Source: Balanoglossus misakiensis
Lineage: Eukaryota; Animalia; Hemichordata
Length of the DNA stretch: 64,000 nucleotides
Reading direction: 5' to 3'
NCBI GenBank assembly: GCA_040954595.2
Contig: CM082594.2
Span: forward strand, 4,263,319 to 4,327,318
Shown: piece by piece, positions 13,601-59,952 of the stretch
Layout: every line of letters begins with the position of its first letter
How positions within the stretch are numbered: position 1 is the first letter of the stretch
Notes under the pieces: generated by a model
Seen by the model: the letters and a program-made list of their open reading frames with translations, nothing else
What the model was told of the DNA's origin: nothing
The model's database searches: none
Position numbers and translations under genes: made by a program

Positions 13601-15591
13601 CATATAGTGTCTTCGACTGGTCCCAACACTTTCACCAAGACGCCCTCTACGGCTACTTTGGGTGAAACTCTACCATGCCCTGGTACGTGGGGCCGGCGGC
13701 GTAGACATGGTAACCTGGTTTTCATTTTTTCTTTCTGGCTATGAATCATATGTCTCTCTGAGGAAAAAAAGCTTGACATGTGGCGGACTTTGATCAAATT
13801 ATCGATTTAAATCGTCATTGTCAGTCTTGCCGAAATCTGTAATATGCTTATAAATCCCATATGACAAACCAACAGTGGATAAGGAAATTAACTGCACACT
13901 GTAAAAAAATGGTAAATTTGAAGGCTTACTTTTAAAAATGCACAAGCGGACACGCGTGTAAAAGACTGTCCGATGCCGGATAGTTGTAGCAGTGCGGGAA
14001 GGCAATCAAACACTACGACGGAATATTTGAGTTGAAGTTGATACCTTTTTTTATTTCACTTTTCTCGGCAAGAACACTCAGAGTCGTCAAAACTTCAGAG
14101 GTATCAAAAGTGAACGGTAGATTATAAGTTCAATCTATATATACACATACATTTTCTGCGGACAAAACGTGTCCAAAAACTGTGCGAAAATCGGAAATGT
14201 TCACAGGCGAACAGGAAATGTTCGACTTCCAAATTAAAGAAATACACACAAGCACCTTAGAAAAAAAGATGGAGCGCATATATTGACCAACGGACGGTCG
14301 CGCGAATGGATTGTCTTGTTATCACGACCCTATAGCTGTCCAATTGTTAGATAAAGCAAAGTTCACTCGGAGCCAATGGAATGGTAACAACCTGGATTCG
14401 TTCTTGAAAACTTTTTTTTTCACGTTACATTTCGAAAGTACGTAATTTTGTTACAAAAGTGAACATTACGATAAGAAGGTGCCGCTGGCTACATTACGTA
14501 GCGATGGCTTTCCAACGCAGAGAGATAACAAATCAGAAAGAAGAAAAAATAAAACTTGGCCGGGAGAAAGTTCCCGGATTTACAACCAGTCATGTTAGGC
14601 TACAAGATTGACGAGAGCTCCACGGGGGGAACTGAAGAATACAAGCAGTACTGATGAAAATTCTTTGTTTGCTAGCGGAACGCCTCCTGGTTCAAAAAAG
14701 TATTCGTATGTGCGGCAGCGTTATACTTGTGAACACCGGGGACGAACTCGCGGCACTATTAATAACATTCTCCTTATACAGAAATAACAGTTGCCCACCA
14801 GGGGATCTTGTGATCGTCCACAAGCGGCAGAAAAGTAAACAATAACAATAAACATACAATATATTAATTTAATAGACTGTGACAAAACTCAAATGATGTA
14901 AATATAAAGGGAACACAATTTTTCATGAAAGCTCTGAAAATGTAAATAATGACACCCAAAGTATACATTTCGCATACAGTGGACTGAATCTAGTGCGTGG
15001 TTTATACTATACGATGATGTCACAGAAATTATCTAGAAGTATAACTTTTTTTTAGAAATAAATAAATCGTTTTTATGCAAACTGAATTAATAGGTTTTAA
15101 ACTTATACCCTCTTCATGGCAGTCAATTATCTTCGAATGGTTATTCGAAATTTAAGTATTTGGTATACATGTGAAAGAATACCCAGACGCGTGGAGTAGG
15201 GACAATTTGTATAAATTTTGCATTTTTTTGTCGGTGACACGACAAGTCATGGAAAGTGTTTTTTTTTTCAGTCGTGGTTATATCAGACTGTATACCACGC
15301 ATGCACGTCGGCAGTGACGTCACAGGCATTTGATCAAAGCGCAGAAACGCCGGACACCAGGGCTGGATGACATGATTTCATTTAAATAAAATAAAAACTA
15401 TACTAAAGTCTGAACTTTGAATCTCACCGGTGTTCTCGACATTAAAGTGTTGCAACTGGAATGTAGAAGCATATCGGAATATTCCAAATCCGAATATTCC
15501 AACAGAAAGTTTTTCATCGGTTGAAATACAATATTATATTATTGTATATCATTCTTCTGGTAGAGTTTCTGTTTTTACATTGTCCGCCTGC

Positions 15592-16533
15592 TTACTGCAG
15601 AATACAGCTCTGCCGTTGTTTCCCCTGTTCAATGGCAAATTTGCCCCCTGCCTTGCGAATGATTTTGACGTCACCGGTGACCAGCAGCATCACGGAGTAA
15701 GGGTTGGTAGCGCTGTAGAAGTGGAGGTCGTACTCGTCGTAGAGCTCCCGGCCGCCGTAGACCAGGTGCTGCTCCTCGACATCGATGCCCTCGTTCTCGT
15801 AGATCTTGGCCTTGATCTCCCAGATGGTGGTGGTGGGGTTGACGGCGATCTGGTAGCTCCGCCGGCGGAGGGTCTTGATGATGATCGGGTACGAGCGGTA
15901 GGCCACGTAGATGACGGACGACGACATGATGCTGTAGTCGTACAGGGTCAGGCTGTCGTCCAGGATCTGTCCCATGTACACGAAGCAGAGCACGTCGACC
16001 GGGATGTGGACCTCCTTCTCGAAGAGCTGCTTCGTCTCCAGCACCGTGCTCAGGGGCTCCGCCTGGATCTCGGTGTCCTCCTCCTTCAGGGTGCGCAGCG
16101 TCACCGTCATCTTGCCGCACTTCTCGGCGCTGCGGTAGATGTGGATGACGGCCTCCTTCTCGATGTCGTAGTCGAGCAGCGTCTTGTCGTCCGACAGCCG
16201 CCGCCCGCGGTAGGTGAGCCGCTGGTGTTTGGGCTCGATGCCCGTGTGCTCCGTCACCATGGCTTTGAACACGTACACGTACGCATCTTCGCTGACTCGG
16301 ACGGTGAACTCTTCATCATACTGGGTTCTTATGGTGACCGGTATGACGATGTGGTGCGGCGGAGAGTGCCGACCCAAGTCGCTGCCGCTGTCAACATCGT
16401 CGTCATCGTCGCTCTTCCGGTCGGAGCCTTTCAGCACCCCGGGCGGCGGGACGATGAAGCCGTAACTTTCTTGTCTGAACATCCACCGCGGCCTCGTCGC
16501 ATAGCTGTCGTTGTTGTTCGAATCTCCTTCCAT
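15592..16533 (-). CDS. Tandem triple ubiquitin-like domain protein with C-terminal CaaX motif (313 aa, single coding exon)
   Basis: Three ubiquitin-fold repeats: GIEPKHQRLTYRGRRLSDDKTLLDYDIEKEAVIH, IPVDVLCFVYMGQILDDSLTLYDYSI, KAKIYENEGIDVEEQHLVYGGREL. Ends SCILQ*. Start chosen at GACAAAATGG (16533) because the ORF further upstream crosses a splice acceptor at 16658. Confidence 0.85.
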   Translation of the reverse strand: MEGDSNNNDSYATRPRWMFRQESYGFIVPPPGVLKGSDRKSDDDDDVDSGSDLGRHSPPHHIVIPVTIRTQYDEEFTVRVSEDAYVYVFKAMVTEHTGIEPKHQRLTYRGRRLSDDKTLLDYDIEKEAVIHIYRSAEKCGKMTVTLRTLKEEDTEIQAEPLSTVLETKQLFEKEVHIPVDVLCFVYMGQILDDSLTLYDYSIMSSSVIYVAYRSYPIIIKTLRRRSYQIAVNPTTTIWEIKAKIYENEGIDVEEQHLVYGGRELYDEYDLHFYSATNPYSVMLLVTGDVKIIRKAGGKFAIEQGKQRQSCILQ

Positions 16534-16987
16534 TTTGTCCGCCAGCTTGACAGTTGTCCTCGGCAGGTGAGAAGGGTTGATTCTCGGGAGCTGGCGATCT
16601 GTCACTTTGCGGTTAACGCGGGCGAAGCGGGGACTTTGGTCCTCAGCAGATGAGTACCTGCAAATGACATAAATCGAAAAAAGGGTTAATGAGTATATAA
16701 AAATGAGCAGCTGCGAATCCCAGGTCGGCAGACGTGAAGAACAGAGCGGTTTCAACTTCCCAAAGATTCCAGATTGTTCCCGATGAAATTCGCTTCTAAC
16801 TGTCCACTTACATCAAATCTGTTTCTTTTGGGACTAATTTCCGATTACATTAGTGGTTTGCTTCGATGCTGCAGTGAAAGTCCAAGCAGACAGGGTAAGT
16901 AAGTCGATTCGTACCACGCCAAATTTGGGACAGTGCATCAAAGATAACCCTTGCAGTATGCGACAATGTGCGCGTATCCAGGCCTAC

Positions 16988-17057
16988 CATAGGAGATGTT
17001 CGCACGCAGGGGTTACAGGTACTCACTGAATGGAGGACGAGTCGTTCGGTTATATAT
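16988..17057 (-). promoter_or_regulatory. TATA + Inr core promoter and short first exon of the tri-UBL gene
   Basis: Minus strand TATATAA (17056-17050) lies 29 nt upstream of the A of an Inr-like TCAGT (17027). Donor ATG|GTAGG at 16988/16987 and acceptor TTTGCAG|G at 16658/16657. Confidence 0.55.
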
Positions 17058-18790
17058 TAGCCTACACGAACCCAAAGTGATTGAAACCCAGTGGGGTCCG
17101 CCCACCCCTGTTTGTCAAATGAAAGAGCCCCCTGCTCCTCACGTGAGCAGCTCTTCAAAGTACACAGTGCAGTGCAGCCTCTGAACAAACACAGTGTATA
17201 CGTGTGAGATCCTCCACCTATGATGGGGGGTGTCCCTGACAACCTTGCTATTCGGAACGATGTTATCGACACATGGAGGGGAAAGAATCAAACAATGTTC
17301 ACCACTATTAATTTGGTTTCACCGCGTGGTTTTAAAGGTCCACGAGCTACTTCTTTTGACAATTTTTCACTAGTTTACTTTTAAATTAAAATGAGATGTA
17401 TTTACCGAGGGATGTGCGTGCAACTGTTTTCACAATCAACTGTGACATCAAAAGGTTGAACAAGATTAATTTATGGGTGTCCAGTCAAATATGGCCGCAT
17501 CCGCGCAAAGACATGACATTGTGTCCTCTCCACGGAACGCATATGACTGATTTACGAATACGATCGTACCAACAAATAGGCGCGTTACTGTCAGCAGAGC
17601 AGTAAACTCATCCCTGGTCGATTTTGATGACAACTTGAAAAACATGATAAAGGCCTGATAACAGTTTTGGCGGTAAATCCTTCACCAGATATCGATATCG
17701 CTTTGCAAACAAATTGTCAAATAATTTCGAATTATGACGCTTATCAATCAACGCTTACTTGTCATAAATTCAAAGTATGACGGACTGATGAGCAGATAAC
17801 CAAATAATACTGACTTTTGGCTTTTTATTATTATGTTGACCCTTTTCATGACCCTTGCACGACCTTACATCCTGCTATTTCCGGTGGAAATTCATCATTT
17901 TCCATGAAAGAAACGCGGCCAAGTTTCGTCCGAAAACAGGTAACGGTGGTAATTAAGCATAGAAGTTGACTACAGCGTTTTTGAAGAGTTTTTAAAACCA
18001 AAAAGATGGCTAATTATGGACATTTGCTCTTGAAGCAGGCGACTTGATATACATTTATTAAAATATCGACAGTCTTTAATGTTTTGTAGAGGGGGAGTCC
18101 CCCTGGATTGAGTTTAGTTGACTCAACTCGCTTAATATGTACTTGCGATGAAGACAAGTTTTTTAGCATCTGATGTCTGATCTTACTTTCACGTGTCCAT
18201 AGAAGAAAAAATAAAACGGCAAATTCCGTCATTTCAGGAGAATGTTCCAGAAATTTTATAGTTCAGGTTGTACGTACAGTAAAGCACGCACGACTCTCAG
18301 ACTTTGTTCCCAGGTAATGATGACAATGGCCTACAATGACTCATTTCCATCGGTCAGATTTCGGGCAAAGATCTGCGTAGATCATCAAAGTCAAATTTAG
18401 ACTGGCATTGTCTTTATCAGATTGTCGTGTTCCAATCACAACATGCAATTCACAATAATACCGGATGATGTTACTTGAAACGGTAAACTGGAAATTCTAC
18501 ATAAAAAGCAATGGAATGTAATAACCATGCGTACGCATAACCCTGGGTATTCCCCCTACCTCTGATCAACAATAATGACGTTGACTGCCTGTACGTGCTG
18601 TGTTCAATTTTGGTAAACCTAAATACTTGCTTCATCCTGCTTTGGGCATAAAAATACTGAATTGCAAGATGGAAATTTCAAATGGCGTTATTTATCCCGT
18701 CTTGAACTGTATTTAAATGTCCTGTGATGAAAGGCGCAAACGGTTTTCTAGGATTTCACAAAACAAAAGCCGACGATCCGGACGAGGAGC

Positions 18791-28600: not shown

Positions 28601-29548
28601 CGATGACGTCATCCAGCATTGATACCATAGCTGAATTTTTGGTTCGCCAGTCACAAGAGACAGACAGACATACAGAAAGAATGAATGTATAGATGAATGA
28701 ATGAATGAATGAATGAATGAATGAATGATTGAATGAATGAATGAATGAATGAATTTAAAGAAAGATTATGTGAGCGATTATCAACATTTCAGACTTCTTC
28801 AGCGTGAGCGCTGTGAGTTACTATGCAACAACCCTGATTTTCATCTTCAGTAGCGTTTGTTTTTTAGCATTGAAATTGGGTTAATGGAATATCGCATGAT
28901 TTTAACTCACCCCGTGTTGTACGTAGGTTCCTGTTATCAGTCAAATTGTATAAATCAAGGTAATGGTCTGGGACCTGGAAAATATCCTAAATGTTAGTTT
29001 TGAGAAAGGGCAGAAAGCACTCGTTTTCTCATACTGTGTTATTCCGATACCAACATACTGACAAGACGTGTATACATGTTCCTCGATCTTTCCACTATGG
29101 AGATCTTTCGCCCTACGAAGTTGCTTACCTGGTACGGCGTGTGTGGTAATATGGATGGGTAATATAAAAACAGCGGTGTGTCTGGATTGTGACGTTCTAC
29201 AATACTAACCAATCGTTCGGAGAACAGCTCCTGCCAATGGAATTTACAGAGACATATATTATACAAAAGAGATGTTGTGTCCATGAGGTTGTAGCTTATC
29301 TTTTATCAGGATAGCGAAAGGCAATTTTCCATAAGTGTAGAAGTTAAATTTTACGTTTAAGTTCATGCTCGCTTTAGCAATTCAATATAGACACACAGAT
29401 GATATACAGCCTGCCGAAATGCCTGTACGTACCGATGCGTGTTTACCGGTTTCGTGTAACACGGCTCCAGTGTTGTCTCTGAACGCGTTGAATGGCATAT
29501 CGTATGGAGTGCCTGGACCCTCATCTATTGAAAATATTGTAGTCATTA

Positions 29549-29630
<82 letters not shown>

Positions 29631-31543
29631 CCATCATTTTATCTGTGCGGCTGACATGAAAGAGAAATTCTCACCGCCCTCCTTGCTGTGGTCGTAGTAA
29701 TCCATCCCTTCATATAATGTACCATAGAACGAGTCAAATCCTCGAAAGTATGGCGTCACATCCCAACGACAAGATCCCAGGTGCCACCTATGAGACAGAT
29801 AGTTTGCGAGACATTTGCGGGGAGCGGGTACAGTGGATTGGAGAAATAGGTACTGGCAAGTTTATGTATGAGAATTCCGTGTGGCATCCGCAAGCTTTAA
29901 GTATGCTCGTCGTCAGGACCACTAAAGCCGTTTAGCCGTGTGGCATGTTTTGGAAAACGGTTCGGTTAACTATTTTGAAGTACTAACTTTCCAATCATAT
30001 GAGCTGCATATCCCAACGGTTTCAACGCCTCTGCCAGGGTAGTGTAGTTCCTTCGCAGATAATGGGGTCGTCGATCCCCTATGGTCTGACGCTGCAGGAA
30101 ATATTCAAAATAATGTATTTCTTTATAATATTATGCCCTTATAGTGATTTTCGTCAACTAAGGTATCTGTATGCAAAATTGAATCTTCGGTCCTTCTATA
30201 GGGTGTCGTTAACTTGTCTAGGGTACAGAGCATTTCACATGCAAACACCAGCTCACAAAATGCAAAAAAAAAGTTGTTGGAAATGATTATATTCCATACA
30301 TGCATATTCTAATTACTTACACCCAAACCCGTTCGGAATGGATAATAGCCAGTCATGAGGGACACTCGAGATCTGTGAAAACGTGTATAGTAAATAAGAT
30401 GTGATTTCAAATAATATGACATGAAACAAAAATTATAATTATTATATCATGTATACGCTGTCAATAGAACTGCCTGCATCGAATCGTCAAGGTTCTTGTG
30501 TTGTCAAATCTCGATCTTGCATTACAATCAAATTTAGCTAGTCACGCATGGGTCAGCACAATATGAACTTTCCACTACGATTTTCACTCTTTCTCTCTCT
30601 ACATTCATCGCATGCTTATTTTTAGTAAGGGTGAATCAAAGCCTCTCGGGTTTGAATACATGTACTTACGGAGTGCACAGCGGTTGCACGTAGGATTGGT
30701 TCAGAATGACGCCCCCTCTGGCGAGATAATCCAGATTGGGTGTTTTCATTACAGGATTGTTGTATGAAATGTCTGACCAACCTGCAGAATTTAAGACGTG
30801 CCAGTTAGCACTTTACTTCGTATTTCCAAGAAAATTCTCTGTGGCACTGGTCGACCTATGGGAGGTACGGTTGCAGGCAAGTGTGGACCTTTCCATGTAC
30901 ATTGTACTTACCAAAGGTACAGGCCATAACCAGCACAATGTGGGGTTGCTTTACTTCTTCTAGGCGAAAAAGAAAACGAATAAGATAATGAATAAGTTAA
31001 AGTTAATACAGAGACCAAGTGTAATATACAATGTACTAGTATGCGACTATTACCAATGAAATGATTGTAGTTATAAGAGTTTCTGTAGTTGGTGACTCAT
31101 AAAATTGTCTACGAATTCGCGTAAAGATGTCGCCCAATCAACGTCATGCCCAACTTTCTACACTCTGGCCACTGTCTGGCGCAAACATTCTGAAGTTGAT
31201 CAGGTCAGTGGGCCGAAGGGCGCCCGGCTACGTCAAATACAGTATGAAAGCAATGAAAATCCTGAGATAAATAAATAAATCCCGAGAATTGTCTCAAATA
31301 ACACAACATAGATTCCTTCAATAATATTAAAACGCGTTTCATCAGTATTGGTGAGATGATTTCGAACTCACCCAGGCAACAGTTTCCATCCTCAGTAGGT
31401 TCCACCTCCAGATCTTCCGGTTCCGACGTGGAAGAAGAAGAAGAAGTCAGCCCCACGCTCAGTAGGACGGCTGCGACCACGGCAACCGCGCCAAACAAGA
31501 TGGCCACCAATATAAGTTTACGTGTCTTGCTGGAGGTTGCCAT
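25672..31543 (-). CDS. Arylsulfatase B/I/J-like sulfatase, 16 exons, 536 aa, N-terminal signal anchor
   Basis: Exons 31543-31372, 30959-30912, 30781-30670, 30372-30321, 30091-29988, 29787-29675, 29524-29433, 29230-29129, 28974-28911, 28630-28533, 27700-27567, 27285-27227, 27035-26918, 26740-26670, 26380-26285, 25847-25672. Motifs QPHIV, KTPNLD, YVQPLCTPSRVSLMTG, GKWHLG, RGFDSF, PLFLY..PHTPYQ, NWPFRG, EGGIR, LDGMDVW, DPREVNDLA, WTPGWC*. All phases consistent. Confidence 0.92.
28693..28753. repeat. (GAAT)n microsatellite in sulfatase intron
   Basis: Direct read. Confidence 0.9.
29551..29637. repeat. (CAT)n microsatellite in sulfatase intron
   Basis: Direct read. It explains the poly-His ORF in the track. 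Confidence 0.95.
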
Positions 31544-41200: not shown

Positions 41201-44200
41201 ATGAACGAATGAATGAATGAATGAACGAACGAACAAACGAATGAATGAATGAACGAATGAATGAATGAACGAATGAATGAATGAATGAATGAATGAATGA
41301 ATGAATGAATGAATGAATGAATGAATGAATGAATGAATGAATGAATGAATGAATGAATATCCCTTTCCAGTATAAACTACTGAGGCGACGATATGAGTTT
41401 ACTATGGGTTTGTATTAAAGGCACATAAGCTGTAACTTTTGGGATAATTTTCATTATTTTTGTTTCACACTGAACTACCATTAGTCCATGCAGATGAAGG
41501 CAGTGAACTATACACAAGCATTATAAACCCTAAATATGAGTGCATATGCAAGTTTTAACCAGATAAATAATAAAGCTTTGCCGCAAGCGATTATGGCCGC
41601 CACCGTGGGAAAATGAAAGAAACAATGAAAATGTCGTAAACAAAACATGATCTCATCCACTTGAGCTCATGGAAGTAAATGTACACCACTGAGACATCAG
41701 ATTTTCATTTTTCATTGCAATATTGCACTTTTTTAAAAATTTCAGGAATTTTCGTTTTTCTTTAATTTTTGGCCAATTTGTCATAAATAAGTGTTGAGCT
41801 TGATATATTATCATGAAATAGCATTTAATACATATAATTAAAAGCATATATGAGATTATTTAAAACATTGATTTTTTATCCAGTTGCAGCTTACGTGCCT
41901 TTAAGGCCAATGGAATAGTATAGTAACGGTCGAAGATTAATGTGAACAGAGATTGTTAACTGAAACATAAGTAGTTCAATGTCTGGGTGGGAAACTTTAA
42001 TTGACCGTGACCCGCCATTTATGAGTACTGTATATACACAGTTCACTGTATGTACTATTTGTATGGTTGCGATCTTTCAGACCGTTTCTATATACGAACT
42101 GGTGCACCGTACTTTTGGGGTAACCGATCAGAACGCCTCACTTAGAAACCTCCAAGACGATAATCACATATGCGCCCGAGTTTCTGACACGAACGCGAAT
42201 AATTTAGTGGTGCACTTGAATTGCACAGCAAATCATCTCTGTTGGCGCGTCTAGCTAAACTTGACCCTTTTTAATAATGAAAGCGATAATTTAAAGGCGA
42301 TAATATCCTGTCGGCGAAGCCCGTAAAACTTGTTTCCAGATATGCCAACCACTTGACACAAGGCACGGCGGACACCTTGGAATGCAAACGTGTGCGGCAC
42401 ACCTTGGGTGGGTCAGATTAATCCGCTGTCCAACCTTGCCAGGGAGATTTTATTTGCAGATAAGAAACCGCTGATTAGGATCGGAATTTTCAGACACTAA
42501 ATCAAATTTACCTGCTTGCGTTTTTGTCATTTCGTCCATGGTTGGTTGGGGGGAAATGAAAGTACATCGACAAGTGACCCTAACGAAGTAGCTCTCTACG
42601 CTGCTCTCCAGCGATCAACATGTTTCCGTTAAATGAATCAGTTAAGACATAAAAAACAATAGTGATATGTAAACACTACACCTGTGACTAACGTTCAGTA
42701 TTTGTCAAATTTTATCAATTGGATCAAAATTTTCGGATTACGTCCAAATGGTGACTAATCAAGGCATTGCCGAAATGTTGACTCAACATATTGCCGACAC
42801 CCAGCGGCTGTGATCACAAACCTGAGACGCCCATGCATGCCCCTCCTAAAAAATCCCAATAATTTCGTCAACACTGCCAAAAACAACAGAACGCATTGTT
42901 GTCGATGTTACATATACAGCTGTATTCGCATACTTGTCTGATGTGTGAAACATTTCAAGTGCATACATAGTGCGGTATTCAAAGTTTCGGGGTCATGACC
43001 CCGTAACAGGTTGGCATGTGAACGGCATCGTTTGTGTTCAAACTGTGCAAGGATTATACAACCACAGGACTGGGATATAACATATAGTGACCAGTCAGTA
43101 CAGTGAATGAGCAGTATACTGGCGTTCAAGCATAAGTGACAATCTTGAGCATTATATAATTCATATTTTCTGTCTACCGTAACTCCACAGGTGTTGTGAT
43201 ACGTTTAGTCCTGGCCGATAGAGCTGAAAAATCAAGCTTCATTACTTAGCCAATATATGTTTTCCCATTTAAATAATTATTGAACCTGTGGTCTGTTTGG
43301 CGCGATCGATATCGACGTCGTGATCCTTTGTTTATTTATCGGGACCAAAGGAATTCCCCCGGTATCTGCATCTTGTGTGTACCGTTGATAACCCAGTGTC
43401 CATTGTTCAAGAGTTGGACTTAACTGATATGTATCATTTATTTTACACGTCACATCAGTGGAAATATATCCATCGCTGACCTAACCTCATTCTTCCGGTA
43501 TCCGCGTTTACTCCTGGTTATCTGATTATGTAGGTCAAAGAAAATGCGAACAATGTCTAACAACAGATAATAATTGTTTGGGTAATGTTTTCCCCCAAAC
43601 AAAGACATTATGTGGTTGTGACCCGGGATACTTCCGTGTTCAGATGATTATTTGATACATTGCCCTTTCGTATCGATTGAAATCCGACAATTGTTCAATT
43701 CTTCTCCTATCGCAGAATTTGCCATCAATTTCTTAGCAGATTGCAGATTGCCATGTATATCACACTAACAGCCTGAGTGTCTACGCTTGACTCACATCTG
43801 ACCTTTCGAAAACCCTTTGAAATTCTTATTTCAGTGACTTTGTCATCGACTGATCAGTCTACCTTTGAGGGATACTTCATTCAGGCCGAAACCTTGGATT
43901 TCCAACCGATTAGTGTGACGGGTTTCAGAGAAAATGTCGGCACAACGCAACTCTACAAGTGCAGAGACCAGGAGAACTCTGGTATTGCGTCTGCAGACTC
44001 GGAAACCCCACAGGGACTTAGCAGCGTCGTTGTGACATGGGTAGCGCCTCAGACCGAGGAAATCATTCATTTTGTGTAAGTGTACCATTTTTTTCAGTAA
44101 CTAACGTCCACAAGGTTTCCTGTCATCCTGTGGCAGTGCACAATTATTTGGGAAGGGGGTGTGCCAGATGAAGTAGAGCTTGGTTGACATTGCAATGTGA

Positions 44201-47200
44201 TCCTGCCCAGATGGTCTAACATCAGAGGTGTACGCCACCTGTCCTCCGTTATTGAAATGCTACACCATTTTACTCGACCCATATCTAACATGCATATGCA
44301 CCAGGCCAAAATGCATTCCTACGCACAAATCCTTAAATCAGCACTCAATTCATGGTCAAAAAGATATTAAAAATTGTATCCTGTGAGGACTGCTTGAAGA
44401 TAGCATACCAACATCTATTGTGTTCGAATCACCAACTCCCGACTTTCCTTCCATTGATGTTTCCCAAAACACAATATTAACCGTGAAAATGCGTTATCAA
44501 CACATATTTGTATGATGGGTAATTTTCAAAATTGTACTTTATAGGGCAAACTTTCATGCATGTTTGCAAAACGTAGCCAGTAAAATGGCCCAAAACACTA
44601 CCGTATTAATATCTAGTGGGCCATCATATATGGAGACATAATTTAGTAAAATTTCGGTCAGTGGAAGTACTTAAAATAAGAACACATTTCCTCTCTCCAT
44701 CTCCGCAGTGCCACAGTGGTAAAGACCTGGGACCCACTTGAATATTGGACTGACATCCAGTCGGTTGTCATCATTCCATATCTGGACGTGGATGTGTTTG
44801 GACTGGATGCGGTGAACACCACCGATGGAAATGTTACACCACGTGTGTCGACCACGGACAAAACATCCCCTGGCACTGAGGTATATACTACCGTGTCGTC
44901 GTCATCAGGCAGGCCAGCAACAGAAGAAACAGACGTCAGAAGAGCATCAACAATGAAGATGTCAACAACAGTCAAACCAACAACAGAAGTACCAACCACC
45001 GTTGTCTTAACAACTGAAGAAGTAACCACCACCGTCACAACGACAGCAGAACCAACCATCAGCATCACAACAACAGAAGCACCAACCACGACATTTGAAC
45101 CAACAACCACTGTCACGACACCAGGAGCACCAGTTATAACCACTATCACGACAGCAGAACCAACCACAACCGTCACAACGACAGAAGAACAACCAACCAC
45201 TGTCTTAACATCAGAAGAACCAACCACTGCTGACATAACAACAGCAGAACCAACCACAACCGTCACAACGACAGAAGTACCAACCACCACTGTCTCCACA
45301 TCTGAAGAACCACCAACAACTGTTGTACCAACAACCACTGTCACGACACCAGGAGCACCAGTTATAACCACTATCACGACAGCAGAACCAACCACAACCG
45401 TCACAACGACAGAAGAACAACCAACCACTGTCTTAACATCAGAAGAACCAACCACTGCTGACATAACAACAGCAGAACCAACCACAACCGTCACAACGAC
45501 AGAAGTACCAACCACCACTGTCTCCACATCTGAAGAACCACCAACAACTGTTGTACCAACAACCACTGTCACGACACCAGGAGCACCAGTTATAACCACT
45601 GTCACGACAGCAGAACCAACCACAACAGTCACATCGACAGAAGTACCAACCACCACTGTCTCCACATCTGAAGAACCACCAACAACTGTTGTACCAACAA
45701 CCACTGTCACGACACCAGGAGCACCAGTTATAACCACTGTCACGACAGCAGAACCAACCACAACAGTCACATCGACAGAAGTACCAACCACCACTGTCTC
45801 CACATCTGAAGAACCCCTAACAACTGTTGTACCAACAACCACTGTCACTACACCAGGAGCACCAGTTATAACCACTGTCACGACAACAGAACCAACCACA
45901 ACCGTCACAACGACAGAAGTACCAACCACCACTGTCTCCACATCTGAAGAACCACTAACAACTGTTGTACCAACAACCACTGTCACGACACCAGGAGCAC
46001 CAGTTATAACCACTGTCACGACAACAGAACCAACCACAACCGTCACAACGACAGAAGTACCAACCACCACTGTCTCCACATCTGAAGAACCACCAACCCT
46101 TGTACCAACAACCACTGTCACGACACCAGGAGCACCAGTTATGACCACTGTCACGACAACAGAACCAACCACAACCGTCACAACAACAGAAGTACCAACC
46201 ACCACTGTCTCCACATCTGAAGAACCACCAACCCTTGTACCAACAACCACTGTCACGACACCAGGAGCACCAGTTATGACCACTGTCACGACAACAGAAC
46301 CAACCACAACCGTCACAACGACAGAAGTACCAACCACCACTGTCTCCACATCTGAAGAACCACCAACAACTGATGTACTAACAACCACTGTCACTACACC
46401 TGGAGCACCAGCTATCACCACTGTCACAACACCATCAGCAGTATCTACGTCCACCGTCACAACCAGACAAACGACATCAGAGGGACCAACCACAGCTCAG
46501 ACCACAGCAAGACAAATTACAACAAGGCTATCTACAACTCTTCTTCCCAGTGAGTATAAATTCTTCCATTCATTGTCATTTCACCCGTTATATGCAGCAC
46601 AAACGATCAATCGATCTTTCTTATCTTTTTACAGCAATACCGACTGCGGTCGCATTGCAATTTAAATTGGCCCAATATGCATGGCACGAAGATTATGAGA
46701 ACCCAACGAGTGAACGATATTTGGCGCTGGAACGGGATGTCAAGACTGACGTAAGAGCGCATCTTATTCTCCAGACTACATGGTCTTGGGTCAAAACAAA
46801 TAACCCTAATCTTTCCCTCTGGTATTTTTTGACAACCACTTTCTTTGTAAATGACACATTTACTGTTGGATTTTGCGTGTGGACTTTATAAAGACATAAT
46901 TTATGAATTAATGTGTATGATAAAAATGTGCGCAATTTCAAATTTCAGTTAGACAACTTGTACAAAGATGAACCAAATTATGATAGGACTGAAGTTCTGC
47001 GATTCATGTAAGTTTTGAGCAATTTATCATATCACTTTATGTTCTGAATGTTATTGTATCCGTATAATGGTTAGTAACCCCTGCAAAACTATTTACAACT
47101 ACATTCAAGCAGGAGATGGCTCTATTAAGTCTCAGTTGCAGCATTCAAGTTCAACAGACAAATCGTCAACCAACAAATACATGTAAATGCATACAATGCT

Positions 47201-55422: not shown

Positions 55423-58400
55423 TCATTCTTGTGTGGATGGAAATATCTTATTGTGAAGGTAGGTCTTCAACTCTGCCATTGTTTCCAGTTTATCAAGTTC
55501 AAAATGATTCACCTGAAACAGAAGCAAACTTGAACTTAAATCAATCTGTTTTGTGTCAGGTGGTTGAGGCACCACTTTCAAAGCAAAGCGATTATTCTTG
55601 TTACAATGCATAGAGACATATAAGTTAGTTTCGTTTGATATTCCCTGGGCTTCTGGACAATTTAACAAAGTAACAGAGGTCAATGATCCAGTAGCGCAGC
55701 TTTATGATATTCAATAATCTCTTCTATGCTTTTAACCCTTCCCTTTTTAACCTGGCTTGAAAACAAACAACTGACAAATGATATCAGGGTGTCAGGCCAG
55801 GACAGGGTACAGAAGGTCAAACGGAGAGCTAATTATGGAACTTTATGATGCTGTAAAATTGTATCTACAGATTGGCTTGATTGATCCACCTTTTTCTTGT
55901 TCCCATTTTTCTAGTTCTTGGTGGTGTGACAACACTGCAAGAATGATGGGTCATGGTGGTAATATCACGTGCAGTGCCCGCTACCCCCCAAAAAACAAAT
56001 GGTTTCTCCTTTCCAGACTACTGTGGCAGTATACACTTACTTGAATGACGCCATATCCCATTTTATGCAGGTGTCTGTTTTGCATATCTTGTCTCGACAG
56101 GAGAATTTCACTATTACTGCAGAAAAACATCTTGTCTTGCACAAGTAGGACAACTCTGCAAGTGAAAGTGAAACAAGACGAGAGTTACATCTAAAATCTT
56201 TAAGCCAGAATCCACCAAATGTCATTCAAAATTATCACTAAAACTAATCTAACACAACATTATAAACAAGTCTATTGTACTAAAATGTAATCTACGTATA
56301 GATGAGTGAAGTTTATTCTGGCTCTCCTTCTAATAGTTGAGTACGTGTGAACTTGTAAAACGTCATGACCTAAAGGACATTGAGAAAACACTACAGAATT
56401 CGACATTCTTCATTCCCCTACCTTCTGAATTTGCTATTCTGTGGTGACTGTAGTAAAATATCATCTCTCTGTGAGGTAGACTTTGACATAAATTCCAGTC
56501 CGACATCTGACCCTGTGCTGGTCAATTCCTCGGGCACATCTTTGGAGGAGTCATGTGTCTTTTCACTTGAGTCCACCTCGGCACTTCCATGGTGGGCAAG
56601 TGGGGACATTTGCAAGCCAGGAAGTTCCATTGTCAAGTTACTCCTCCCATACGTGCTGTAGAACGCTTCATTTCCAATCAGAGCTCGGGCGTCAGAATCA
56701 TCATCGCTGTCCCGAGAATCATACACAGGATTTTTAGAGAAAACCTCATTTCTGATATCAGAGTCAGATTTCACATCCCTGTCAAGTTTTTCGTCCGCCA
56801 AGTTCTGTTCATCTTCAGTCACTTGATGTAATAAACTGTGAGAAGTCCACTGTCTGTCATTTTCAAACTGTGGTATGGCTGCCTCTCTCTGATTGGCTGC
56901 ATGACCTGATGACATCACGCTGTTCGCTGACGTGTGATTGGCTCTTTCTCCTTGTGACATCACACTCTTAGGAGTTACATTCTCACTCTGTTCCCGCTGT
57001 GCCTCATCAAGCCCACTGACATGATCATCTACTTGCAGGAAGTTGCCATTGCTATCAATATGTAGTTCAAAATCTAAAATAAAGTAATATAGCGAGTCAA
57101 TGATCATTTTTACGGTCCCCACATGCCACCCCTAATCCTGGTATGTAGCATTCAAAAAAACACATTTGACTGTAAGAAAAATGCAGTTTTGCTTGAAAGC
57201 AACCTATTTCTCATTGTCACCAATCAGTATTCAGGAAGAGAGTGACATCACTTGATTTAAATACAGAGACCTATAGGCCAATAATAATCATCCTGTACAA
57301 GACCAATCAGCAACCAGGATGTGTATGACATCATACCTCAGCGGCCAATAAAAATCACCCTGCCTGTGAACACTTACCAGCAGCGCAACCTGGTGCAAGG
57401 ACAGGTTGGTACAAATAGTACCGCTCGCCACCAGTCATTTCCTGAATTGCCGTCTTGACGTGATTCAGATAGGGGTTGTTACGCTGGTGGTAGGCTTGGT
57501 CAGTGTTGTAGAATGCAGACACCTGGACGACAAGATTAAGCGACATATTGAGTTAGCAAGATGTTTTAAACAGGATTGTTCTGAGACCATAATTCCACTG
57601 GACACCGTGAGTCACACCAACTCTGTCTGGACCCCCAAACTTCTTACCTACAGCAATTACAGTTGGGGTCAAGGACATTCGATGTCATGCAACGTTGGGT
57701 TTAACTTGATGAATAGTCTCTTGGAAGGAATTTGATATCACTATACCACACGTTATGACATGATTTGCTTGGAACATTGAATAAAAGCTCACCTTGATGT
57801 CCTGTGGTAATCGTGGTCCATTGTATGCTGGGCATTCCAACTCGACAGCTTGATCAATCATGCTCAACTTCACTTTAATGTCTTCGAATTGATTGGGACC
57901 ATCTGTGTATCAATGCAAAATATAATTTCATTCTCTCACAGTGAATTACAGTTTTTTAATAATTTATTTAATAACATTAATTAGAAATTGCTTAATTAGT
58001 ATGTGCACAAGTAACAGATACACGTAGTACAGATTTCAAAGTACATTTACTGTATATCTAGGTTTCATTCATAATGCTATACCTTTCTGTATTGTGCAAT
58101 ATGAGTACCCCAGTAAAGCTAACTCCTTCACATTTGTGTGAACCTATGTACTAAGCAACTGAAGTGCAACAGCCTTACTTATCCAGGGATATCTTCGAAA
58201 ATTAGAGCTTAAATGCAGAAGAATCTGGTTTCTTTTCATTGTAACTTACCAAATATACTGTCTACAAATTCATGAGTAAACATCTTCTCCAAAACAGACA
58301 CGGGAAAACACTTCATCTGGACCAATGACATCATCACATTGACTGTGGCCAGTGGGGACTCTTTGTATTCCTTCAGAAGAATCTTAAGAAAGACAAAGGG

Positions 58401-59952
58401 AAATGGAAATATCGGCATTGTATAATAGTGCTGAAAACTTGCAGCAATTTCATGAAACTTGTGCGCATCATAGCCACATGTATGAATTTAGCCACAAAGA
58501 CTATGGATATGGAGATTAGCCAATCACAGCTTTCACAGTGTTGCTGTATGATCATGAGACATTTAGCCTCACCCACCTTCAACCATTAATGGGCATATGT
58601 CATTTCAATGTGGTAAAGATGAAAAATATACAATAAACCATTCAGATTTACACAGTAGGGGTAAAATTGTTTTATATAGGATTTCATTTCAGGCAAATCA
58701 CTTTCTTTTCTGAGCCATGAAATTTTTAATATACCTCCTCCATCTTACTGAAGAGTTGCTCGTAATTTTCTGGCAGATAGTTGAGCTTGCCGACCGGTAG
58801 CATCAGCCTTTGCACGTCGTCAAGACCGAGGTAGTTTCCGTACTGGACAAGGTACTTTGACAATGCCTCCAGAAGCGACACACTCCTGACCGCATGGTGG
58901 GAGATATACTTGGCCAGGAGAATGAACACGTTCTGCGGTATGCTGTCGAAATGCTGGGGGAGATCGACGGCGAGGGACTGAAGGAAGCGGTCGTGTCGGA
59001 AGTAGAAGAACGCGCGGTTGTCGAGGAGAAGCTCCACGAGCTCCGGGTTGCACTTCTGCCATCTGACTGCGAAGGCCGCCAAATCGCCGATTTTCAGAAT
59101 GTCCATCCTCATGGGCGATCTGTTGAGTCCCAGGAAGACCGTGATCACGTCTGTCAAGTGTTGGCCGACGACGTAGAACCTGGTGTCCTGGTCGGTCTCC
59201 TCGGAGACGCTGGTCTCTACGTGAGGAGTGTACTCGTCTCTGTAATAACTCAAGAGTGGCACTAGAGTCCTGTGGCTTGTCACTACATCCAGCTGCCCCG
59301 CGATCTGTTTCGCACACGCCTTGCGCAGGGGCGTTTCTGTGGCCTGCATTATGTTGAGATACTCCAAGAGTTTGGAGAGGTCGATCAGGCTGAAGGACTC
59401 CAGTCGCCTCTCGCACTCCGAGGCGACGGCGACAAACAGCACGTGGTCGTGCGGCAGCCGCAGGGTCATCATCGACTGCAGCGTCTGCACCAAGTTGCGG
59501 TTGTTCAGCTCCGAGCAGTGCAGCGCCAGGTGCGTGCACATGGGCTCGAACGCCGCCCAGTCTGTGAAGTCGGCAGGTTGGCCCTTTCTCTTACACAGCT
59601 CGATGGCGTACGAGATCGCGATGGCGACGTGGTGCGGGTACACTTTGGCGGGGTTCTGAGTGATCAGCTGGAACACGTTCTCGACGGTTGGGGAGTTCAC
59701 GATGATCTTGAGCAGAGTGTCCTTCGGTCTGCTGCGGTAACTTCGGAAACTGCTGCACCCAGTCGATTGCTCACGAAGGATGGACTGCCAAGATCCACAG
59801 TGATGTCGATTCTTCCAAGCCCATGAACTTGAGGTTCTCACTGCCACAGACTGTAGACATAACGTCTGTGCTTGAAATTGAGATGCCGATAGGATGCAAA
59901 ACGAACCTCTCTTGGCTGGCTGTAACAGCCTTCTAGCGATGTGCATCAGCAT
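55423..59952 (-). CDS. FASTK: FAST kinase family mitochondrial RNA-binding protein, FASTK orthologue (820 aa, 7 coding exons)
   Basis: Exons 59952-58735, 58382-58250, 57902-57793, 57522-57378, 57073-56422, 56155-56041, 55512-55423. Arg-rich N-terminal presequence. Motifs QNPAKVYPHH, PVGKLNYLP, PLATVNVMMSLVQMKCFP, DQAVELECPAYNGPRLP, and RAP domain RVVLL..FC..RHLHKMGY..ELKTYL. From memory these match human FASTK (QNPSKVRAHH, PLATVNILMSLCQL, DTAVELELPGYRGPRLP) better than FASTKD1-5. Confidence 0.85.

What the first reader, a model, noticed from the sequence alone, without database searches (positions are those of the whole stretch)
15592..16533. Tri-ubiquitin-like protein with a C-terminal CaaX motif: possible membrane-anchored polyubiquitin mimic
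Seen: three head-to-tail ubiquitin folds, mutually divergent, with no LRGG sites between them, preceded by an acidic/Ser-rich leader and ending K-Q-R-Q-S-C-I-L-Q-stop. Established: CaaX with X=Q is a farnesyltransferase-type signal. The prenylated ubiquitin-fold proteins I know (UBL3/MUB) have one UBL, and the multi-UBL modifiers ISG15 and FAT10 end in diGly. Inference: a non-cleavable, lipid-anchored linear-chain mimic could recruit or decoy ubiquitin-binding proteins, DUBs or E2s at membranes. I do not recognise this architecture as a named family.
Basis: partly seen in the sequence, partly recalled or inferred. Interest (0 to 1): 0.8.

Follow-up and report, generated by a model that had tools for sequence, protein, structure and literature searches.

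The report
Lipid-tailed triple ubiquitin-fold protein
This intact gene, likely from an acorn worm, encodes three diverged ubiquitin-like domains with no cleavage sites followed by a conserved lipid-anchor signal, so the protein is likely a membrane-tethered adaptor for ubiquitin-system proteins rather than a faithful copy of a ubiquitin chain.

Summary
The minus-strand ORF 16533..15592 encodes 313 aa: a disordered leader, three Pfam ubiquitin domains (each 28-32% identical to ubiquitin, 26% to each other), no LRGG, and the end CILQ-stop. Orthologues in Ptychodera flava (CTLQ) and Glandiceps talaboti (CVLQ), and a 34-38% identical paralogue (CTVI), all keep the CaaX while the residues before it drift, so the box is likely under selection. 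It is not a UBL3/MUB member: three domains, no MUB Pfam hit, no second cysteine, no lap-bar motif. The 'linear-chain mimic' reading is weakened: linkers are 8 and 3 residues instead of 6, domain 1 has lost its Ile44 patch, and no domain of the three orthologues keeps Phe4. Two unnamed 7- and 10-domain proteins also end in CaaX, so the design may be wider. No RNA or partner evidence. Not found in five literature searches, nor noted earlier by this scan on other DNA. A new variant of a known kind.

The parts
15592..16533 (-). 313-aa ORF, three ubiquitin-like domains plus CaaX, in one exon
   Evidence: ATG has A at -3 and G at +4; both orthologue models start at the equivalent position
16444..16485 (-). 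Invariant leader motif W-x-FRQESYGFIVPP (residues 17-30) in a predicted disordered leader; candidate partner-docking or phospho-regulated motif
   Evidence: 13 of 14 positions identical in the three orthologues, absent from the paralogue; pLDDT under 50; no PDB sequence match
16126..16347 (-). Ubiquitin-like domain 1 (residues 63-136); Ile44 and Phe4 patches lost
   Evidence: PF00240 69.2 bits; F4T, L8Q, I44T, L71R in all three orthologues
15892..16110 (-). Ubiquitin-like domain 2 (residues 142-214); hydrophobic Ile44-type patch kept; joined to domain 3 by 3 residues
   Evidence: PF00240 50.6 bits; L8, V44, I49, Y68
15670..15891 (-). Ubiquitin-like domain 3 (residues 215-288); most conserved, Ile44-type patch kept, basic RRR loop, added aromatic face
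   Evidence: PF00240 51.6 bits; 61/74 and 62/74 identical in orthologues; W24, Y31, Y/F51, F58, Y64 in ubiquitin numbering
15607..15669 (-). Basic tail with a predicted beta-hairpin; candidate second membrane signal; no second cysteine
   Evidence: net charge +5, +3, +4, +2 in the four members and no Cys in the 20 residues before the box; strands 289-293 and 299-303 at pLDDT 60-86
15592..15606 (-). CaaX box CILQ and TAA stop
   Evidence: CTLQ, CVLQ, CTVI in relatives
16658..16811 (-). Candidate 154-nt 5' intron (GTAAGT...TTTGCAG); splicing would join AT|G into an in-frame start and give a 355-aa form
   Evidence: only donor above 3 bits in the upstream region (approximate matrix recalled); splice model; inferred only
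17025..17056 (-). Candidate core promoter (TATATAA with TCAGT initiator-like element about 29 nt downstream)
   Evidence: 2 matches in the window against 0.84 expected, 19 of 100 shuffles reach 2; not significant by itself

Best explanation
The gene encodes three diverged ubiquitin-like domains without cleavage or conjugation sites and a conserved CaaX box, and the protein is likely farnesylated and held on the cytosolic face of membranes, where domains 2 and 3 would bind ubiquitin-system proteins (E2 enzymes or Ile44-patch readers) much as single-domain MUB/UBL3 does. Shown: the ORF, the three domains, no LRGG or terminal diGly, conserved CaaX, surface substitutions. Predicted: beta-grasp folds. 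Inferred from established rules: farnesylation (X=Gln), help from the basic tail and the RRR loop of domain 3. Inferred only: that domains 2-3 bind ubiquitin readers or E2s, that the added hydrophobic faces pack the domains or bind one dedicated partner, and that the invariant leader motif recruits a second partner.
For: CaaX kept in 4 of 4 members while flanking residues drift. X=Gln is an FTase rule; CILQ/CTLQ/CVLQ score Ydj1_HM 5.60/5.34/5.42 (cut-off 3) and Ras_HM 18.8/18.9/17.8 in the yeast screen. Basic tail and +4 loop on the membrane-proximal domain in the three orthologues; a single prenyl group often needs a polybasic second signal. Domains 2 and 3 keep hydrophobic residues at positions 8, 44 and 70 in the orthologues and domain 3 is the most conserved. 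Precedent: MUB tethers E2s to the membrane and blocks their charging (PMC4996978; PMC10511055). The cassette predates the gene duplication: the paralogue's domains group one by one with the orthologues' (supports 88/98/99; 94/100/98, quick trees).
Against: No partner, localisation or expression data. The MUB lap-bar motif (K/R)xPFG with a 3-residue expansion is absent; domain 3 has only a 1-residue insertion with [NRK]PY. His68 and Arg42 are changed in domains 2-3 of the orthologues and Ile44 is Val, so canonical readers may not bind. The paralogue's domain 3 has Q8/A44 and a weaker basic loop (+1). The yeast screen passes most CXXX sequences, so a pass is weak evidence. Many new conserved hydrophobic surface residues fit a dedicated partner equally well.
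Confidence: 0.45

Rival explanations
1. A prenylated scaffold that has left the ubiquitin system: the three folds pack into a compact unit or self-assemble on the membrane and bind dedicated, lineage-specific partners through new hydrophobic faces and the leader motif.
For: 6, 8 and 7 positions in domains 1, 2 and 3 are hydrophobic in all three orthologues where other ubiquitin-like domains are polar; the 3-residue domain 2-3 junction is conserved in all four members; domain 1 has lost its Ile44 patch; the leader motif is invariant.
Against: Hydrophobic residues at 8/44/70 are kept in domains 2-3 of the orthologues.
Confidence: 0.28
2. A faithful, non-cleavable mimic of Met1-linked tri-ubiquitin that decoys or recruits linear-chain readers (UBAN proteins, OTULIN, HOIL-1) at membranes.
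For: Head-to-tail domains; best sequence and Foldseek matches are linear ubiquitin chains; mammalian OASL's non-conjugatable tandem domains are thought to mimic poly-ubiquitin (PMC8764230); two of four kB-consensus sites in the window lie within 1.1 kb upstream of the candidate promoter (post hoc); domain 2 as distal (L8, V44, R72) and domain 3 as proximal (I4) keep part of the needed surface.
Against: Linkers 8 and 3 instead of 6; Phe4 kept in 1 of 12 domains (paralogue domain 3), Arg74 in 0 of 12, domain 1 without Ile44 patch. The model superposes on linear tri/tetra-ubiquitin at 13.5-18.6 A rmsd, although linear chains are flexible, pTM is only 0.66, and one Fab-bound di-ubiquitin (3u30) fits at 3.8 A.
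Confidence: 0.12
3. A UBL3-type covalent tag that is attached to cargo through a tail cysteine and sorts it into small extracellular vesicles.
For: Ubiquitin fold plus CaaX is the UBL3 layout (PMC10511055).
Against: UBL3 orthologues carry a second cysteine just upstream of the CaaX, and it is the main modifying residue; 0 of 4 members have a cysteine in the 20 residues before the box.
Confidence: 0.05
4. The CaaX is incidental or spliced away and the protein is a soluble, degenerate polyubiquitin derivative.
For: A donor-like GTAAGC overlaps the stop codon; databases name the orthologues 'polyubiquitin-B-like'.
Against: That donor scores 0.9 bits, reached by 6.7% of 4,254 GT sites; one strong acceptor in the next 6 kb, not GC-rich and closing after 3 residues; three database models end in CaaX-stop; 64-73% identity between species with domain-specific conservation.
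Confidence: 0.06

Closest known systems
UBL3/MUB (membrane-anchored ubiquitin-fold protein; PMC10511055 sections 6, 7, 10; PMC4996978 passages)
   Same: Ubiquitin fold, no terminal diGly, C-terminal CaaX, hydrophobic Ile44-type patch (domains 2-3 here).
   Different: Three domains derived from ubiquitin proper instead of one; no PF13881 hit above cut-off; no second cysteine; no (K/R)xPFG lap-bar loop; X=Gln (farnesyl) instead of Leu in human UBL3; added leader motif.
OASL tandem ubiquitin-like domains (PMC8764230 abstract and passages)
   Same: Tandem domains with a short hinge, more compact than linear di-ubiquitin; the mammalian form lacks LRLRGG and is thought to act as a non-covalent poly-ubiquitin stand-in.
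   Different: No OAS domain here; three domains; CaaX anchor.
ISG15 and FAT10 (fold matches; diGly of FAT10 recalled)
   Same: Diverged tandem ubiquitin-like domains in one uncleaved chain.
   Different: They have two domains and are conjugated through a C-terminal diGly; this protein has three and ends in CaaX.
Polyubiquitin precursors (UBB/UBC type; the database label of the orthologues)
   Same: Head-to-tail repeats in one exon; closest sequence matches in the PDB; likely evolutionary source (inference).
   Different: Repeats only about 30% identical to ubiquitin and 26% to each other; no LRGG processing sites; linkers 8 and 3 residues.

Membership tests
UBL3/MUB | C-terminal CaaX box | tested here: met
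   4 of 4 members
UBL3/MUB | Single small ubiquitin-fold domain of the MUB sequence family | tested here: not met
   Three PF00240 domains; PF13881 (recalled as the MUB model) 13.3 bits against cut-off 23, not listed for the single domains
UBL3/MUB | Second cysteine upstream of the CaaX | tested here: not met
   0 Cys in the 20 residues before the box in 4 of 4; feature
UBL3/MUB | Lap-bar loop (K/R)xPFG, expanded by 3 residues in animals | tested here: not met
   No expansion in domains 1-2; 1-residue insertion with [NRK]PY in domain 3; feature
UBL3/MUB | Prenylation, membrane location and E2 binding | not testable with these tools
   Only sequence rules and a yeast screen score
Polyubiquitin precursor | Near-identical ubiquitin repeats separated by LRGG | tested here: not met
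   28-32% identity, no LRGG
ISG15/FAT10 modifiers | Tandem diverged ubiquitin-like domains | tested here: met
   (three, not two)
ISG15/FAT10 modifiers | C-terminal diGly for conjugation | tested here: not met
   Ends in CaaX; no GG at any domain end in 4 of 4
OASL | OAS domain before the tandem ubiquitin-like domains | tested here: not met
   No such Pfam hit in the ORF or the three database models
Met1-chain mimic (functional class) | Distal Ile44 patch and Leu73/Arg74, proximal Phe4 patch and Glu16, 6-residue linker | tested here: not met
   reader contacts; partly kept only for the domain 2-3 pair
Met1-chain mimic (functional class) | Inter-domain geometry of linear chains | tested here: inconclusive
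   rmsd 13.5-18.6 A to tri/tetra-ubiquitin but 3.8 A to one di-ubiquitin; pTM 0.66

The most novel reading that the evidence does not exclude
Polyubiquitin genes have given rise to an unnamed class of prenylated, uncleavable multi-ubiquitin-domain proteins (3 domains in acorn worms, 7 and 10 in two unnamed records) that act as multivalent membrane platforms or decoys for ubiquitin readers and E2s, possibly NF-kB-inducible: a membrane-bound counterpart of ISG15/OASL in invertebrates.
Probability: 0.2. Interest if true: 0.75.

Novelty: new variant of a known kind. Interest (0 to 1): 0.47.

Why it matters
A 2022 review calls the CaaX of UBL3 unique among ubiquitin-like proteins. This family is a second, separately built ubiquitin-fold plus CaaX design, with three domains and likely a farnesyl anchor, kept across two acorn-worm genera and one old duplication. 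It shows that polyubiquitin-derived genes filed as 'polyubiquitin-B-like' can be constrained proteins with their own function, and it gives a simple test of whether a lipid-anchored multi-domain ubiquitin stand-in can localise or damp ubiquitin signalling. Its weight is limited by the narrow known range and the lack of any partner.

Tried and rejected
No whole genome is held for the window, so paralogues and synteny could not be searched beyond it; within the window tblastn found no second copy (best other hits E 0.03-0.1; the 43311-43433 hit did not look like a coding ubiquitin domain). No RNA holder listed. First AlphaFold run on 3 sequences failed (pLDDT 35.2). Homodimer prediction for residues 14-313: no answer, score 0.00, neither support nor evidence against. 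Three word-index searches gave only the three acorn-worm relatives plus generic multi-ubiquitin proteins; lengths outside 151-548 were not searched there. The full-library profile search lists 150 of 433 hits at E up to 1e-30 and is swamped by many-repeat proteins, so distant three-domain relatives under 196 bits would be hidden. No relative in viral or metagenome contigs. ESM Atlas gave only generic ubiquitin-like clusters. 0 of 64 flanking frames (chosen from 317 listed) hit Pfam, so neighbours give no functional hint. Loss of Lys48 in 12 of 12 family domains was not used: it is kept in only 465 of 1,079 other diverged domains. Separate origin of the CaaX in P0141/P0148 could not be shown: a clade with domain 3 is not rejected (p-AU 0.54); the careful tree did not finish. 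The leader motif has no PDB sequence match; LIR-like and basophilic-kinase readings of it are recalled resemblances only. kB sites: 7 matches (4 places) against 2.9 expected, 5 of 100 shuffles reach 7, inflated by palindromes; kept as a lead only.

Full report
Observation. The minus strand 16533..15592 is an intact 313-codon ORF ending KQRQSCILQ-stop. Pfam finds three ubiquitin domains, each passing the cut-off alone (69.2, 50.6, 51.6 bits). They are 26% identical to each other and 28-32% to a ubiquitin taken from a fetched polyubiquitin record. There is no LRGG. GC3 is 0.93 over the domains in a window of about 0.40 GC. AlphaFold2 failed on 3 sequences but with 23 rows (4 family, 19 other multi-ubiquitin proteins) gave three confident beta-grasp domains, a disordered leader and a tail hairpin (pLDDT 80.8, pTM 0.66).

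Relatives. Word-index searches found orthologues in Ptychodera flava (P0003, 71%) and Glandiceps talaboti (P0004, 64%) and a G. talaboti paralogue (P0006, 38% local, 34% aligned), which makes an acorn worm the likely source of the window; earlier scan notes on this genome say the same. They end CTLQ, CVLQ and CTVI. The 21 residues before the box are 16/21, 10/21 and 2/21 identical, and Cys makes up 2.5% of the other last-30 positions in the fetched set, so the cysteine at -4 is likely selected. Quick trees group the paralogue's domains one by one with the orthologues', so the three-domain cassette predates the duplication. No other member was found, but one search shows only 150 of 433 strong hits, so the range is a lower bound.

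Gene structure. The ATG at 16533 has a good context and both orthologue models start there. Upstream, an acceptor ends at 16658 and the only donor above 3 bits is at 16811 (matrix recalled and approximate); splicing them would join AT|G into an in-frame start and add 42 residues. A TATA/initiator-like pair lies at 17056/17029, not significant alone. A donor-like GTAAGC overlaps the stop codon but is weak (0.9 bits; 6.7% of GT sites score as high) and has no convincing downstream exon within 6 kb. None of this was tested with RNA.

Prenylation. X=Gln or Ser directs farnesylation and Ile or Leu geranylgeranylation, and one prenyl group often needs a polybasic or palmitoyl second signal (PMC9141697 and PMC13524398, passages). 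In the yeast FTase screen PMC10320760 (passages, section 20 and supplement rows) CILQ, CTLQ, CVLQ and CTVI score 5.60, 5.34, 5.42 and 4.09 against a cut-off of 3, and Gln at X is a positive pattern; the same paper says FTase accepts most CXXX sequences, so this is permissive, not proof. No member has a second cysteine; the tail is basic (+2 to +5) and the first loop of domain 3 is +4 in the orthologues, +1 in the paralogue. In ubiquitin that loop lies beside the C-terminal tail (recalled), so it would face the membrane (inference).

Surfaces. In ubiquitin numbering, domain 1 has F4T, L8Q, I44T, V70Y, L71R; domain 2 keeps L8, V44, A/V70, R72 and gains I49, Y68; domain 3 keeps L8, V44, V70 and is the most conserved (61/74, 62/74). 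Linkers between position 70 and the next position 1 are 8 and 3 residues against 6 in a Met1 chain (read from the alignment). Met1 readers use the distal Ile44 patch and Leu73/Arg74 and the proximal Phe4 patch and Glu16 (PMC5135002, passages); Phe4 is kept in 1 of 12 family domains, Arg74 in 0 of 12. The model fits linear tri- and tetra-ubiquitin at 13.5-18.6 A and one Fab-bound di-ubiquitin at 3.8 A, which is inconclusive at pTM 0.66. Six to eight positions per domain are hydrophobic in all three orthologues where other ubiquitin-like domains are polar. The leader holds W-x-FRQESYGFIVPP, identical at 13 of 14 positions in the orthologues, while its acidic stretch is not conserved.

Mechanism. 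Most likely (0.45) the protein is farnesylated, sits on the cytosolic face of membranes, cannot be cut into units or conjugated, and uses domains 2-3 to hold ubiquitin readers or E2s there, as MUB does with one domain (PMC4996978, passages; PMC10511055, abstract and sections 6, 7, 10). The lap-bar motif that makes MUB an inhibitor is absent, so tethering is more likely than MUB-type inhibition. A dedicated scaffold outside the ubiquitin system is the main rival (0.28); a faithful linear-chain mimic (0.12), a UBL3-type covalent tag (0.05) and an incidental CaaX (0.06) are less likely. No partner is shown.

Wider pattern. Of 151 non-family proteins fetched, 6 have Cys at -4 and 2 a strict CaaX: P0141 (10 domains, CVIS, same end in its 5 cluster members) and P0148 (7 domains, 3 LRGG, CIVS), 12-13 residues after the last domain. 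Among the 109 with at most 3 LRGG, 0.34 are expected (p near 0.05 by my own arithmetic). Both are unnamed records. Their last domains rank 118 and 742 of 1,078 against the domain 3 profile, but P0141's last domain is the only one of 1,079 with the family's hydrophobic-x-GD end (a signature chosen after the fact), and a shared origin is not rejected. Shared descent or convergence is open.

Comparison and novelty. It works like UBL3/MUB in layout but fails three of the four sequence features tested; it is not a polyubiquitin precursor, ISG15/FAT10 or OASL (PMC8764230, abstract and passages). Searches of the held library for tandem ubiquitin-like domains with CaaX (0 papers; none of the 30 listed of 1,948 holds a multi-domain term), for invertebrate or hemichordate polyubiquitin-like proteins and for degenerate repeats listed nothing that describes this family; I saw listings only, and subscription journals and preprint supplements are not covered. 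Verdict: real, conserved, apparently undescribed variant of the prenylated ubiquitin-fold theme, with a narrow known range and an inferred mechanism; interest 0.47.

Noticed in passing
window 17227-17236 and 18092-18103: Two of the window's four kB-consensus places lie about 0.2 and 1.1 kb upstream of the candidate start site; 7 matches against 2.9 expected window-wide. Post hoc lead for immune induction.
   Followed up: partly
window 16990, 16938, 16850 (-): Three upstream ATGs in the candidate first exon would give short upstream ORFs of 46, 34 and 1 residues.
   Followed up: no
window 43777-44079 (+) and 44953-46665 (+): A Reeler-domain exon (PF02014, 30.8 bits) followed by a long Thr/Pro-rich mucin-like repeat frame.
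   Followed up: partly
window 56418-59952 (-): Exons with weak, below-cut-off FAST_1 and FAST_2 hits, likely a FAST kinase-domain gene.
   Followed up: partly
window 15421-16653 (+): A 410-codon open frame antisense to the gene, no Pfam hit; likely a by-product of high GC3.
   Followed up: partly
P0148 (unnamed record): Three near-canonical ubiquitin units with LRGG followed by four diverged units and CIVS: looks like an intermediate between a polyubiquitin precursor and an uncleavable prenylated form.
   Followed up: partly
window 15607-15669 (-): The tail hairpin loosely resembles the first two strands of a further ubiquitin unit, which would fit truncation of a longer repeat gene; by eye only.
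   Followed up: no
window 29365-29697 (+): A frame with a long His run, likely a trinucleotide repeat rather than a gene.
   Followed up: no
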